The notes under the pieces are model-generated. The model was not told where the DNA came from. It made no database searches and was given only the letters and a program-made list of their open reading frames with translations. DNA of 61,761 bases, the filler included, from Globobulimina sp. (Eukaryota): assembly GCA_003354225.1 (NCBI GenBank). It is 23 parts of 23 records of this genome, joined end to end, with 100 filler letters (N's around TTAATTAATTAA, not from the genome) between each part and the next. Parts side by side here need not be neighbours in the genome. Positions count along the whole stretch, not along the records: positions 59,176 to 61,761 come from PIVH01005852.1; 22 more parts are not named here. One strand, given 5' to 3'. Positions 23,641 to 61,761 of the stretch are shown one piece after another (position 1 is the stretch's first letter; every line of letters begins with the position of its first letter). Both the position numbers and the translations under genes were made by a program.

Positions 23641-23672
23641 TAATAGGGGGCAACAGAGTTGCATTGCGGGGC

Positions 23673-23774
23673 GATAGACCCAGAGGCAAGATAGGCACAT
23701 AGGCAAGATAGACAGAGAGGCAAGATGGTTCCAGATGCAAGATTGATCCCGAAGCAAGATAGATCCAGAGGCAA
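23673..23774 (+). repeat. 17-bp minisatellite, 6 units (consensus GATAGAYCCAGAGGCAA)
   Basis: Invariant GCAA-GAT junction every 17 bp with a variable core. Confidence 0.9.
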
Positions 23775-24277
23775 GATGCAAGGGTTCAGGAAGACCGGTT
23801 CAAACACGCATAGTACAAGACAAAATTTAGGTTCTGTATGTTACGGTTTGCTGGAAGTTCAAAGCAAAGTACAAGTCTGTGGAAAAATTAAAATTTTAAA
23901 TTTTATCAAAGCAGAAAAAAAACACATGTCATTCAAAACAAATGTCTTGTATATTTTTAATTTTTCTTTGATTCAATATTTTATGCATCAACATCCATAT
24001 CCTCAACCCCATCGAACACTCTACTTAATAGATTTTCTTCAATCATTTCTTCAATAACTTCTTGATCACTTGAATGTTCACTCTCATCAATTATTGGTGG
24101 ATCACTATCATCTTCACTCGAATCATCAATTNNNNNNNNNNNNNNNNNNNNNNNNNNNNNNNNNNNNNNNNNNNNTTAATTAATTAANNNNNNNNNNNNN
24201 NNNNNNNNNNNNNNNNNNNNNNNNNNNNNNNCACGCGAATTCAACATAAAATATCTCAATGCATATTTAATGGTGTT

Positions 24278-54018: not shown

Positions 54019-54085
54019 GGTCGCATAGCTCAAGCAGAGCACTGAATTAATCCAGAAGATTCAGGTTCAAATCCTGAGGCGACAG
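54019..54085 (+). pseudogene. Degenerate tRNA gene or tRNA-derived element
   Basis: Acceptor GTCGC/GCGAC, D-arm GCTC/GAGC lacking GG, T-arm TCAGG-TTCAAAT-CCTGA. Anticodon arm is only 14 nt. Confidence 0.7.
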
Positions 54086-59185: not shown

Positions 59186-61253
59186 TCAGAATCTATCGAA
59201 TGTACCATTACCTGCCACGATATCTGTCCATTGCATATAATGATCAGAGATCCTCCATTTTTGTTGATTGCTTCGTAAATCAAATAATTCAATAAAATTA
59301 TCAGTTTTTCGTTTTTTAGTACCTTTGTCAATATACAAAATATCATTTGATTGATCATTTAAACTCCATAACGTACATCCTTTGCGATGAATATATTCCG
59401 TTTCTGGTAAAAATATCCATTTATTTTTAATTGTATCATATCCTTCAATACATTGCGTATCATCACCGCCAATAAATACTTTTTTATGTGTTTTATTGTA
59501 ATGTAAACTTGGTTGAATCCATTGATGTCCGTTATGTTTTGTAATTGGTGCTTTTCCGTGAGAATAAGATGTATAATAATCTATTTGTGTGGCTTTACGA
59601 TTTACTTCAAATCTACATAATTGTCGGTATGCATTTAAAGTAATATCAAAATAACCAACTTCCATTTCCATACTTTTCACAGCAACATAGGCATCGTTGC
59701 GTCGATAATTATGTTCAGTTATTTTGCTTATTATTTAGAAATTATTATAGTATCATTCCCTAACAATATCAGCTTTGAAACGAGTTGCTGACATGATGCT
59801 GAATTTAAGTCAAAAAACTTTAAGAAAACATCATCAAACTCTGCACCATTCAGCTTAACTTTCAGTTGGATCTGATACTGTTAAGTGATAACTATATACC
59901 TTAACATAAATAATTTCTCGGATTCACCATATTCCAATGATGGACTATCAATGACACACATTCCATGAACACTCTGTATAGCTCGCATTTTTACATTTGA
60001 ACCTGTTTCTAATTTCACCCATTTCCAACCTGAATCTTTTTCATCATCGCATTTTTCATCAATCTCACTGAATTTTAATCTATGAATAGTAAACTTATTA
60101 TGATTATAACCCAAATTATCCATCGCTAATAGTCCATAATGAGAGGAATACACAAACATTCGCAGTTGCGATCGTCGATTATTATTCGTAATCACTGGTA
60201 ATTGCATCTCAAACGCATCGATCTGTTTTGTATTTGATAGTTTATACTTATCATCATTGTCAGCAGTAAATGTACAATTTTGTAATAACCGATTATCAAA
60301 TATGATCATTGACGGTTTATGTTCAATTCTCCAGGCATTTAACTTACATTTTAATATAATGCTTGGCTCTTTGATTGGGGATAAAATGTCGGCATAGGAT
60401 GTATAGGCTTGGCGAGGGATTGTAATGTCTGACAAATAATATGTATGCACTGTCTTATCAAACCAATGTTGATCTAACGTCACAATGTTCTGTGTATCGT
60501 CCATTGATACAGTCTTAAATTTTATTATTTTTTTACAATTTAAGTTTATACATTCGATGCCATTTAATAGTTACTGATTGAACGAGGATTGGATGATAAA
60601 CATAATCATATTTGCTTCATAGTATTCTTCACAGAGTTTGACGATATCAAAAGGGATTATATTCATAATGGATTGACTGTTATCATTATCATTGCCTAAC
60701 AATACAAAAATAACATGTCGTATATAGCCAGTGACTAATATTGCTTTCATATTAGATTCAAATTTATTACTACTTTTGTGATAATTTGCTGCTTCATATG
60801 GTTCATAGGTGGTTGTTGGTGGCGGTGTATTATTATCGTCGACGTCTGCTGCTGTCAATTTATGTTTGGTTTGGCCGCCACACTGATACGGTACCGGTTG
60901 TTGTATTGATTTTAGGTAATTACTGCATTCAGTGATGTTGTTACCATATTTAGCAATTGCGTCCAGACACTCATCCAATGTATATCCCATTTTACGAAGA
61001 TTGTCAAATACGTTCCCTGTATATTGGTTCGGAAGGATTAGTTTTTAGACGTTTTATCACCATCTCCCTGGTGTGCGGGGATAATCTAAAAACTAATCCC
61101 TCCGAACCAATCTACAGGGAAAGTATGATGATTCTGGGCAATTTAATGTCCGTCATATGCGTTGAGCAACAACAAACAGTAAAACATACCATGATTTGTT
61201 TTTGTATTTGTGCTTGTTTTGCTGCGTTTGTTTTTTGAGTTCTTTGCGCCCAT
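59186..61253 (-). CDS. Possibly myristoylated UBA-like and Kelch-like protein, multi-exon, carrying a MITE insertion
   Basis: MGAKNS start, intron 61134-61189, FDNLRKMGYTLDECLDAI (UBA-like), LVTGYIR...IP.DIVKLC..YY, Kelch-like VFIGG...YD...NKW. The joining of 59690-59900 is unclear. Confidence 0.65.
61010..61124. mobile_element. Hairpin MITE of about 115 bp with about 39-bp terminal inverted repeats
   Basis: ACGTTCCCTGTATATTGGTTCGGAAGGATTAGTTTTTAGA ... TCTAAAAACTAATCCCTCCGAACCAATCTACAGGGAAAGT (3 mismatches), flanked by an AT (or TA) duplication. Confidence 0.9.
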
Positions 61254-61394
61254 GTTTTGAAAGTTTTTTTTAACTGAAGTAGGAACATTTATTTTTTCTC
61301 TCTTTCGTCCGGAAAATGTCCTCCCATGAATGTTACCTTGATAACATGTTGGACTTTTTATATACAATGTGTAGGTATAAGAATGCATACAAGA

Positions 61395-61482
61395 GGCGGT
61401 ATGGCTGAGTGGTTAAAGCGCATATCCTTCAGGTTATGTGGGTTACATACGACCCTCGGGGGTTCGAATCCTCCTGCCGTCG
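61395..61482 (+). tRNA. Type II (Ser-like) tRNA gene with an atypical 8-nt anticodon loop CCTTCAGG
   Basis: 7-bp acceptor GGCGGTA/TGCCGTC, G73, D-arm GCT-GAGTGGTTAA-AGC, variable stem GGGTT/GACCC, T-arm GGGGG-TTCGAAT-CCTCC, T7 run at 61488-61494. Confidence 0.85.
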
Positions 61483-61761
61483 CTACATTTTTTTATGAAA
61501 AAGTAGAAATGAATTGTTATGGTAGAGGCTGAGAATTCAGCAATTAAAAGGTCTTCGTTGTTGCATAAGTTGAAGAGAAAGAGGTGTTTTTTTGCTTTGG
61601 AATGAAACACCAATCTTTAACGGAGCCGTAACATTTTCAAAAGCCACTGATTCTTTGTTGCAAAGCAATGATTTATAATATATATTAGAGTTTGTGCATT
61701 TAAGTGAATTGAAAGTAAAATCACTAATCGAATTAGTTTTCACTCGTCAACTTAACAATGG

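What the first reader, a model, noticed from the sequence alone, without database searches (positions are those of the whole stretch)
61395..61494. Intact Ser-scaffold tRNA with an expanded anticodon loop centred on TCA (candidate UGA, quadruplet or CUG reader)
Seen: acceptor, D, variable and T stems all pair, A and B boxes are canonical and a Pol III T-run follows. The anticodon arm reads CATAT-CCTTCAGG-TTATG: 4 bp, a T.T mismatch and an 8-nt loop. Established: G73, a long variable arm and a GAGTGGTTAA D-loop are tRNA-Ser features; Leu uses A73; eukaryotic tRNA-Sec has a 9/4 fold with a long D-stem, absent here. Inference: the loop could present UCA (opal suppressor inserting Ser), UUCA (quadruplet, +1 shift at UGAA) or, less parsimoniously, CAG (TTCAGGT is also a Leu-CAG loop, which on a Ser body would mean CUG=Ser). 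TGA still ends genes here (7900, 9775, 30829), so full reassignment is unlikely.
Basis: partly seen in the sequence, partly recalled or inferred. Interest (0 to 1): 0.72.

Follow-up and report, generated by a model that had tools for sequence, protein, structure and literature searches.

The report
Odd-looped tRNA gene in a foraminifer-like protist
A real, otherwise well-formed long-arm tRNA gene carries one extra base in its anticodon loop; it is probably a drifting, poorly decoding or non-decoding copy and not evidence of a changed genetic code, though a special decoding role is not excluded.

Summary
At 61395-61482(+) lies a class II tRNA gene (Rfam 40.1 bits) whose lowest-energy fold is a cloverleaf. 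It has internal promoter boxes, a 7-T terminator, G73 and an anticodon arm CATAT/CCTTCAGG/TTATG.

- **Ser scaffold:** overstated. The same D-loop sits in at least 33 A73, Leu-type CAG tRNAs among 52 metagenome loci. Only G73 points to Ser, and TTCAGGT is a Leu-type loop.
- **Host:** a foraminifer-like rhizarian, not a yeast. CUG is Leu at conserved sites of two proteins, and TGA ends 5 of 19 ORFs.
- **Second form:** public contigs hold the window's form and another that shares both flanks. It lacks the C of TTCAGG (7-nt loop; ARAGORN calls it Leu-TAG), has two broken stem pairs and has lost a TATA-like motif.
- **Copy number:** no close paralogue was seen.
- **Predicted arm:** the loop can close into two C-G pairs around a UUCA tetraloop.

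Best reading (0.5): a singleton, Leu-like class II tRNA gene under relaxed constraint, polymorphic for a one-base anticodon insertion.

Not excluded (about 0.35 together): a Ser-inserting UGA, UGAA or CUG reader, or a non-translational or mitochondrial job. One unrelated metagenome tRNA (L048, A73) also has an 8-nt CTTTCAGG loop.

The parts
61395..61482 (+). class II tRNA-like gene, 88 nt including discriminator G73 (61482)
   Evidence: Rfam RF00005 40.1 bits; ARAGORN; cloverleaf is the minimum-energy fold
61421..61438 (+). anticodon arm CATAT / CCTTCAGG / TTATG: 4 bp, a U.U mismatch and a nominal 8-nt loop. An alternative fold has G26.U, four bp, U.U, then two C-G pairs around UUCA
   Evidence: sequence; Rfam alignment; minimum-energy fold
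61430..61430 (+). the polymorphic C. It is absent from the second version in run X1, which then reads CCTTAGG
   Evidence: read laying tables 4 and 8, records 6 and 7; second version rebuilt from those tables and called Leu(tag) by ARAGORN
61440..61455 (+). long variable arm GGGTT-ACATAC-GACCC
   Evidence: sequence; minimum-energy fold
61402..61412 (+). A-box-like internal promoter motif TGGCTGAGTGG
   Evidence: sequence; consensus recalled
61461..61471 (+). B-box-like internal promoter motif GGTTCGAATCC
   Evidence: sequence; consensus recalled
61488..61494 (+). run of 7 T starting 6 nt after the discriminator; Pol III terminator-like
   Evidence: sequence
61359..61380 (+). two TATA-like motifs upstream: TATATA at 61359-61364 and TATAA at 61376-61380. 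The second is lost in the other version (T>A at 61376, T>C at 61378)
   Evidence: sequence; read-laying table 3. A promoter role is inferred

Best explanation
This is a single-copy, Leu-like class II tRNA gene of a foraminifer-like rhizarian. It keeps everything needed to be transcribed by Pol III and to fold as a tRNA. Its anticodon arm is damaged by a one-base insertion polymorphism, T-C-AG here against TAG in the other version. The locus is evolving under relaxed constraint.

The RNA is probably still made. With G73 and a long variable arm it may be charged with serine. It probably decodes poorly or not at all, because the loop has 8 bases, is closed by a U.U mismatch, and can collapse into a CC/GG-closed UUCA tetraloop.

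Shown:
- the structure
- the polymorphism
- the host's standard meaning of CUG
- TGA closing ORFs

Inferred:
- transcription
- charging
- poor decoding
- relaxed constraint
For: 1. **Non-canonical arm.** The loop is 8 nt and position 31.39 is a U.U mismatch. The minimum-energy fold pairs CC with GG around UUCA. ARAGORN cannot assign an anticodon.

2. **A second version in the same run.** In X1, two contigs cover 61340-61460. One is identical to the window (depth 5.8). The other (depth 8.3) has 6 substitutions, a 2-nt deletion and the 1-nt deletion at 61430. Both contigs start 30 nt before the first difference and end 30 nt after the last. That is the shape of a k=31 graph bubble with shared flanks, so they are alleles or a very recent duplicate (inference).

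3. **The versions differ at sites a working tRNA should conserve.** These are the anticodon length, D-stem pair 12-23 (U-A here, C.A there) and anticodon-stem pair 30-40 (A-U here, U.U there). The other version does not fold as a cloverleaf.

4. **The host needs no such reader.** CTG is Leu:
   - Myosin head: 4 of 10 CTG codons lie in columns with Leu in at least 114 of 120 homologues, and 9 of 10 in aliphatic columns.
   - Columns at least 80% conserved among 119 homologues: CTG is Leu in 5 of 5.
   - Pantothenate kinase: 4 of 11 CTG codons lie in columns with at least 101 of 120 Leu. The nearest homologue has L at 8 and I at 2 of the 10 aligned sites.
   - TGA ends 5 of 19 ORFs.

5. **The loop letters are Leu-type.** TTCAGGT here and TTAGGT in the other version resemble Leu(CAG/UAG) loops. 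All 33 A73 tRNAs in the metagenome set carry a TTCAGGT core. This fits descent from a CUN-reading Leu-like tRNA.

6. **Other tRNA debris nearby.** A second tRNA-like relic with a 4-nt anticodon loop lies at 54019-54085, so tRNA-derived debris exists in this genome.

7. **Such loops are rare.** An extended-loop form was 1 of 40 closable class II CAG-type tRNAs found by the same pattern.
Against: 1. Apart from the anticodon arm, the window's copy is flawless. All other stems pair, both promoter boxes, a TATA-like motif and the terminator are present, and its Rfam score is close to those of working CUG-Ser-type tRNAs (43-46 bits).

2. No contig of X1 that is at least 85% alike, other than the two versions and their shared 3' piece, lies on the tRNA. 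Summed depth of 13.8-16.1 is fully explained by records 6-8. So this is not a fresh copy of an abundant family. An old neutral pseudogene would not be expected to keep a perfect cloverleaf.

3. The window's version is the better one at all three structural differences and at the TATA-like motif. That fits one maintained allele and one decaying allele.

4. The 58 nt from 61431 to 61488 show no difference between the versions.

5. An unrelated, very well-formed A73 tRNA (L048; 57.1 bits; clean 5-bp stem) also has an 8-nt loop, CTTTCAGG.

6. An 8-nt loop can decode triplets: yeast mitochondrial tRNAThr1, loop UUUUAGGU (PMC3113583, passages).
Confidence: 0.5

Rival explanations
1. A working opal suppressor. 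The 8-nt loop presents UCA as a triplet, with the extra base 5' of U33 (C-C-U|UCA|G-G). SerRS charges the tRNA through G73 and the long arm, giving low-level Ser insertion or readthrough at UGA.
For: - The loop can be read as 3+3+2, the same layout as the triplet-reading 8-nt loop UUUUAGGU of yeast mitochondrial tRNAThr1 (PMC3113583 passage).
- L048 reads CUU|UCA|GG in the same layout.
- The rest of the gene is intact.
- It is a singleton without close paralogues.
Against: - TGA closes 5 of 19 ORFs. Reading TGA as sense gives no convincing ORF gain.
- G37 after A36 is unusual (recalled knowledge).
- The other version deletes the middle of this anticodon.
- L048 has A73, so the shared loop does not go with one amino acid.
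Confidence: 0.12
2. A CAG reader. In the alternative stem register (A-U, U.G, A-U, U-A, C.U) the loop is CUU|CAG|GU. The tRNA would read CUG and insert Ser (G73), an early ambiguous-decoding state like the origin of the yeast CUG-Ser tRNA. If LeuRS still accepts it, it would simply insert Leu.
For: - TTCAGGT is the loop of all 33 A73 Leu(CAG) tRNAs in the metagenome set.
- In this register the layout equals that of tRNAThr1.
- CTG is the commonest CTN codon here: 76, against 42-53 for the others.
Against: - CTG sits at invariant Leu sites.
- This register is 3 kcal/mol worse than the Rfam register (-19.0 against -22.0 in the constrained evaluation) and needs two bases between the D and anticodon stems.
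- The G73 tRNAs of known CUG-Ser type in the set have TGCAGGT, i.e. G33, which this gene does not have.
Confidence: 0.07
3. A quadruplet (+1) reader. UUCA pairs with UGAA, as in classical frameshift-suppressor tRNAs with 8-nt loops.
For: - ARAGORN reads L048's loop as a 4-base anticodon, ttca.
- Engineered and mutant 8-nt-loop tRNAs do read four bases (abstracts listed, e.g. SufB2).
Against: - In this register position 33 would be C, not U.
- None of the 5 TGA stops is followed by A. The sample is too small to count either way.
- No gene in the window is seen to need a +1 shift.
Confidence: 0.04
4. A tRNA-shaped RNA kept for a job other than ordinary cytosolic decoding. Either a non-translational role that needs only transcription, folding and perhaps charging, or import into the mitochondrion, which in foraminifera encodes no tRNAs.
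For: - Everything except the anticodon arm is conserved in shape.
- Precedent: Saccharomycopsis keeps an aberrant tRNA-Leu(CAG) that is not used in translation (PMC11342251, abstract and passages).
- Retarian mitochondrial genomes lack tRNA genes, and miliolid cox1 has a conserved frameshift (PMC10127745 passages).
- The host is foraminifer-like.
Against: - There is no direct evidence.
- The other version also breaks the D stem and loses the TATA-like motif.
- The miliolid frameshift needs an inserted base, which a 4-base anticodon would not supply (reasoning from the passage).
Confidence: 0.15
5. An assembly or sequencing error created the extra C.
For: Single-base indels are common assembly errors.
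Against: - The C lies between T and A, not in a homopolymer run.
- A Logan contig carries it at depth 5.8.
Confidence: 0.02

Closest known systems
Yeast mitochondrial tRNAThr1 (UAG anticodon, 8-nt loop UUUUAGGU; reads CUN as Thr). PMC3113583: abstract and passages seen
   Same: A natural tRNA with an 8-nt anticodon loop whose extra base lies 5' of the anticodon. It has a Leu-box anticodon followed by G, and it arose by a one-base insertion in the anticodon region.
   Different: tRNAThr1 is a mitochondrial class I tRNA derived from tRNA-His, conserved in 10 species and shown to decode. The gene here is a nuclear class II singleton, polymorphic, with no evidence of decoding.
tRNA(CAG) of CUG-Ser yeasts. 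PMC4428446: passage seen. PMC5951914: search listing and start of abstract only
   Same: A G73 long-arm tRNA carrying a Leu-box anticodon followed by G37, with a proposed origin by insertion of one base in the anticodon loop.
   Different: The host here reads CUG as Leu. The loop has 8 bases rather than 7, and U rather than G precedes CAG. The host is a rhizarian.
Aberrant, retained tRNA-Leu(CAG) of Saccharomycopsis. PMC11342251: abstract and passages seen
   Same: A Leu-box class II tRNA gene with structural irregularities that persists although it is not needed for translation.
   Different: Those genes keep A73, A35 and G37 and are conserved across species. Here the discriminator is G, and conservation across species is unknown.
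Frameshift-suppressor tRNAs with an extra anticodon-loop base, e.g. SufB2. Abstracts in the listing only
   Same: An 8-nt anticodon loop produced by a one-base insertion.
   Different: Those are laboratory-selected mutants of Pro or Gly tRNAs with repeated bases in the anticodon. Nothing here shows four-base reading.
L048: metagenome class II tRNA with loop CTTTCAGG and A73
   Same: An 8-nt loop ending in TTCAGG, the same D arm, a very long variable arm, and eukaryote-like flanks.
   Different: It has a clean 5-bp anticodon stem, a Leu-type discriminator and scores 57.1 bits. It is only 69% identical to this gene, no closer than the other 39 tRNAs compared. Its organism is unknown.

Membership tests
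cytosolic tRNA-Ser (class II) | long variable arm with a paired stem | tested here: met
   5-bp stem and 6-nt loop. Shared with tRNA-Leu, so not specific.
cytosolic tRNA-Ser (class II) | discriminator G73 | tested here: met
   G at 61482 after a 7-bp acceptor stem. The identity rule is recalled knowledge.
cytosolic tRNA-Ser (class II) | 7-nt anticodon loop with a Ser anticodon (NGA or GCU) | tested here: not met
   The loop is CCTTCAGG, 8 nt, with no Ser anticodon in any register.
   The D-loop is present but not specific. 33 of the 40 closable tRNAs carrying it have A73 and a TTCAGGT loop core.
cytosolic tRNA-Leu (CAG/UAG) | discriminator A73 | tested here: not met
   G73.
cytosolic tRNA-Leu (CAG/UAG) | loop UU-CAG-GU or YU-UAG-GN framed by a 5-bp stem | tested here: inconclusive
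   The letters TTCAGGT are present but not in register with the best stem. The other version reads CTTAGGT.
tRNA-Sec (eukaryotic) | 9/4 acceptor/T fold, 6-bp D stem and UCA in a 7-nt loop | tested here: not met
   7/5 fold, 3-bp D stem with a 10-nt loop, and bases 8-9 cannot extend the acceptor stem.
CUG-Ser tRNA(CAG) of yeasts | the host translates CUG as Ser | tested here: not met
   CTG lies at invariant Leu columns. The host is rhizarian.
quadruplet-reading (frameshift-suppressor-type) tRNA | 8-nt anticodon loop | tested here: met
   True in the Rfam register, although the minimum-energy fold closes it to 4 nt.
quadruplet-reading (frameshift-suppressor-type) tRNA | four-base decoding in vivo | not testable with these tools
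   No RNA, ribosome or proteome data. None of the 5 TGA stops is followed by A, which is uninformative.
tRNA pseudogene | loss of constraint: non-compensated changes between copies or alleles | tested here: inconclusive
   The two versions differ by an anticodon indel and two stem pairs. However, all the damage except the extra base lies in the other version, and the 3' 58 nt are identical.
tRNA pseudogene | not expressed or not charged | not testable with these tools
   No RNA holder was listed.

The most novel reading that the evidence does not exclude
A foraminifer keeps a dedicated nuclear class II tRNA with an 8-nt anticodon loop. The tRNA is charged with serine and reads UGA as a triplet, with the extra base 5' of U33, or reads UGAA. 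It would act either in the cytosol as a natural low-level opal suppressor or after import into the tRNA-less mitochondrion. The well-formed L048 tRNA would be a second, Leu-type example of the same loop design.
Probability: 0.12. Interest if true: 0.8.

Novelty: new member of a known kind. Interest (0 to 1): 0.4.

Why it matters
If it is only a drifting gene, it is an ordinary oddity. It is also a useful warning: an intact-looking 'suppressor' tRNA in a poorly sampled protist need not mean a changed code.

There is still some interest. The two versions catch a one-base insertion inside a Leu-box anticodon on a G73 long-arm tRNA. That is the very type of mutation proposed for the origin of the yeast CUG-Ser tRNA and seen in yeast mitochondrial tRNAThr1.

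If the RNA proved to be expressed and charged, it would be a rare natural nuclear tRNA with an 8-nt loop. It would also bear on how foraminiferal mitochondria, which encode no tRNAs, are supplied.

Tried and rejected
**Searches that gave nothing**
- Whole genome of the window: not held. No tRNA census or paralogue search in the assembly was possible.
- Earlier findings of this scan: nothing relevant.
- Metagenome scan with the gene's own 5' half: 0 hits. Same pattern in viral contigs: 0 hits.
- Viral scan for long-arm tRNAs with an NNTTCAGG loop: 0 hits.
- Prokaryote genomes scanned for L048's arm: 0 hits.
- The record behind L048 is not held, so its organism and wider context stay unknown.
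- Sequencing runs: no RNA holder listed. Runs X2, X4 and X6 have no cover on the tRNA.
- Protein atlas: gave the family only, no lineage.
- Literature: searches on expanded or 8-nt anticodon loops, on foraminifera with tRNA, anticodon and genetic code, and on Reticulomyxa with tRNA genes found no report of such a tRNA in Rhizaria.

**Readings rejected**
- CUG=Ser.
- tRNA-Sec: the fold does not fit.
- ARAGORN's 3-nt 'intron' tcc between positions 31 and 32. The position is not the canonical 37/38 one, and the solution exists only to restore a 7-nt loop.
- A link between L048 and this gene as one family: 69% identity, no better than to the other tRNAs.

**Uninformative tests**
- TGA as a sense codon: total ORF length rises less than when TAA is read as sense, so the rise is noise.
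- Fourth base after TGA stops.

Full report
**1. The observation**

The stretch 61395-61494 was read. Rfam's tRNA model matches 61395-61482(+) at 40.1 bits (gathering score 29; E=5.1e-5 over the window). It aligns the anticodon stem as CAUAU/UUAUG around eight loop bases.

ARAGORN sees the gene but cannot name it. In default mode it reports a two-base anticodon 'tc'. In intron mode it reports 'Leu(cag)' after cutting out three bases, tcc, at a non-canonical site.

Features read from the sequence:
- a 7-bp acceptor stem (two G.U pairs)
- a 3-bp D stem with loop GAGTGGTTAA
- the arm CATAT-CCTTCAGG-TTATG (four pairs and a T.T mismatch)
- a variable arm GGGTT-ACATAC-GACCC
- a 5-bp T stem with loop TTCGAAT
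- G73 at 61482
- seven T at 61488-61494
- A- and B-box-like motifs (consensus recalled) and two TATA-like motifs upstream

The minimum-energy fold is a cloverleaf (-31.1 kcal/mol; z=-1.59; 14 of 200 shuffles fold as well). In that fold CC and GG of the '8-nt loop' pair around a UUCA tetraloop, and G26 pairs with the U after the stem.

**2. Is the extra base real?**

No whole genome is held. Six public runs hold part of 61000-61761, and none is on record as RNA. Four were laid. Only run X1 covers the tRNA, with three contigs.

| Record | Span | Length | Depth | Relation to the window |
|---|---|---|---|---|
| 6 | 61340-61460 | 121 nt | 5.8 | identical |
| 7 | 61340-61460 | 118 nt | 8.3 | 6 substitutions, 2-nt and 1-nt deletions |
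| 8 | 61431-61488 | 58 nt aligned | 5.35 | identical, then runs on unlike the window |

Record 7 differs as follows:
- substitutions at 61370 T>C, 61376 T>A, 61378 T>C, 61381 G>A, 61406 T>C and 61424 A>T
- two bases missing at 61389
- one base missing at 61430, the C of ccttCagg

The summed depth over the tRNA (13.8-16.1) is fully explained by these three records. No other contig at least 85% alike lies on it.

Records 6 and 7 begin exactly 30 nt before the first difference and end 30 nt after the last. I read this as a k=31 graph bubble between two versions that share both flanks, meaning alleles or a very recent duplicate. This is inference.

The extra C is therefore real, though X1 may be the source sample. 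A 7-nt-loop version coexists with it.

**3. The other version**

I rebuilt it in a script from the read laying tables.
- ARAGORN calls it tRNA-Leu(tag), with loop CTTAGGT.
- Relative to it, the window's gene has a C inserted inside the anticodon (T-C-AG).
- The other version has C12.A23 instead of U12-A23 in the D stem, and U.U instead of A-U in the anticodon stem.
- Its minimum-energy fold is not a cloverleaf.
- It has lost the TATAA at 61376-61380.

All the damage except the extra base sits in the other version, and the 58 nt from 61431 to 61488 are identical. This cuts both ways. The locus tolerates disruptive changes, which points to relaxed constraint. The window's copy, however, is the better-kept one.

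**4. Host and genetic code**

The host is not a yeast. A pantothenate kinase ORF has these best named relatives:
- Reticulomyxa filosa, 70%
- Plasmodiophora and Spongospora, 52%
- a Cercozoa MAG, 49%

A myosin head has nothing closer than 66% (an unnamed Logan protein), then about 40% to plants. The window has 33.3% G+C and long uninterrupted ORFs. This fits a foraminifer-like rhizarian. R. filosa is listed with two introns per gene in a table of PMC13746701.

CUG is leucine:
- **Myosin head.** Of 10 CTG codons, 4 lie in columns with Leu in at least 114 of 120 homologues, 9 in aliphatic columns and 1 in an Asp column.
- **Conserved columns.** In columns at least 80% conserved among 119 homologues (P0002 left out), CTG is Leu in 5 of 5, CTC in 3 of 3 and CTT in 1 of 1. 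CTA gives 1 Leu and 1 Thr. The rest of the code looks standard.
- **Pantothenate kinase.** Of 11 CTG codons, 4 lie in columns with at least 101 of 120 Leu. The nearest homologue has L at 8 and I at 2 of the 10 aligned sites.

TGA closes 5 of 19 ORFs of 250 aa or more. Reading TGA as sense gives no convincing gain. None of the five TGA stops is followed by A, which is too few to matter.

**5. Is it a Ser scaffold?**

A metagenome scan for the D-loop followed by 7 to 9 bases and CAGGT gave 52 loci. An acceptor closure could be found in 40 of them:

| Discriminator | Loci | Notes |
|---|---|---|
| A73 | 33 | all with a TTCAGGT core: ordinary eukaryotic Leu(CAG) tRNAs, plus L048 |
| G73 | 5 | four read TGCAGGT, the CUG-Ser yeast type |
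| C | 2 | probably mis-registered by my script |
| no closure found | 12 | not tRNAs, or truncated |

The spacing around the variable arm is the same in both kinds. The D-loop and the long arm therefore do not separate Ser from Leu. Only G73 argues for Ser (identity rule recalled), while the loop letters are Leu-type.

On Rfam score, 14 intact pattern-bearing tRNAs gave 43.1-60.8 bits, and the G73 ones 43.1-46.1 (17 of 52 loci were given).

**6. A second 8-nt loop**

One locus, L048 (428 nt of a 3942-nt contig), holds a very well-formed A73 tRNA:
- 57.1 bits
- a clean 5-bp anticodon stem
- loop CTTTCAGG
- a 25-nt variable region
- ARAGORN reports a four-base anticodon, ttca

It is 69% identical to this gene, no closer than the other tRNAs, so it is an independent case. 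Such loops are thus rare (1 of 40 closable tRNAs) but recur.

**7. How could the loop be read?**

The yeast mitochondrial tRNAThr1 has the 8-nt loop UUUUAGGU and reads CUN as triplets (PMC3113583 passage), a 3+3+2 layout.
- In the Rfam register this gene reads CCU|UCA|GG, which would read UGA.
- In a register shifted by one, which is 3 kcal/mol worse, it reads CUU|CAG|GU, which would read CUG.
- A four-base reading, UUCA, puts C at position 33.

None of these can be tested here.

Context from the literature:
- Retarian mitochondria encode no tRNAs, and miliolid cox1 has a conserved frameshift that needs an inserted base (PMC10127745 passages). This leaves room for special imported tRNAs, but it does not point to this one.
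- Saccharomycopsis shows that an aberrant Leu-box tRNA can persist without a role in translation (PMC11342251).
- The Candida tRNA(CAG) is said to have begun with a one-base insertion in a Ser tRNA anticodon loop (PMC4428446 passage).

**8. Verdict**

The most likely reading (0.5) is a singleton Leu-like class II tRNA gene under relaxed constraint. It is probably still transcribed, perhaps Ser-charged, and decodes poorly or not at all.

| Other reading | Probability |
|---|---|
| opal suppressor inserting Ser | 0.12 |
| CUG reader | 0.07 |
| quadruplet (UGAA) reader | 0.04 |
| non-translational or mitochondrial role | 0.15 |
| assembly or sequencing error | 0.02 |

It is a real oddity of moderate interest. 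It is not evidence for a changed code.

Noticed in passing
window 54019-54085 (+): A second tRNA-like sequence (Rfam 32.6 bits) that ARAGORN does not call. It has a good T arm and a 4-bp D stem. It also has a 5-nt D-loop without GG, an anticodon arm with a 4-nt loop (TTAA), mismatches at both ends of the acceptor stem, and no T run downstream. It looks like a tRNA relic.
   Followed up: partly
window 61008-61049 and 61085-61126: A 42-nt inverted repeat, 93% complementary, with a 35-nt spacer, about 270 nt upstream of the tRNA. Its right arm has very high summed contig depth (hundreds to about 2000) in runs of three differently coded organisms, so it is a widespread repeat, possibly a hairpin or MITE-like element.
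   Followed up: partly
window 61676-61753: A second high-depth stretch (up to about 5700 in X1), about 190 nt downstream of the tRNA. It is present in all four runs laid and is a repeat of unknown kind.
   Followed up: no
window, every ~2690 bases (e.g. 2594-2637 and 2650-2693): Pairs of 44-N runs 12 bases apart recur at regular spacing through the whole window (22 pairs). They look like masks rather than biology. They cut several ORFs, for example the ends of the myosin and pantothenate kinase ORFs.
   Followed up: partly
L048 281-378 (-): Forty bases upstream of the 8-nt-loop tRNA lies another long tRNA-like gene (48.7 bits; G73). It has about 20 extra bases in the anticodon region and a stretch that itself looks like a T arm. 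ARAGORN does not call it.
   Followed up: no
window 23656-23791: A tandem array of 17-nt units (about 8 units; GATAG.C..AGAGGCAA-like) in a stretch without a long ORF.
   Followed up: no
window, ORFs: The DNA is only 33% G+C, yet the ORFs use many G/C-ending codons. TCG is used 136 times among the 724 Ser codons counted, and conserved Arg, Ala and Gly sites of the myosin are mostly CGC, GCC and GGC.
   Followed up: no
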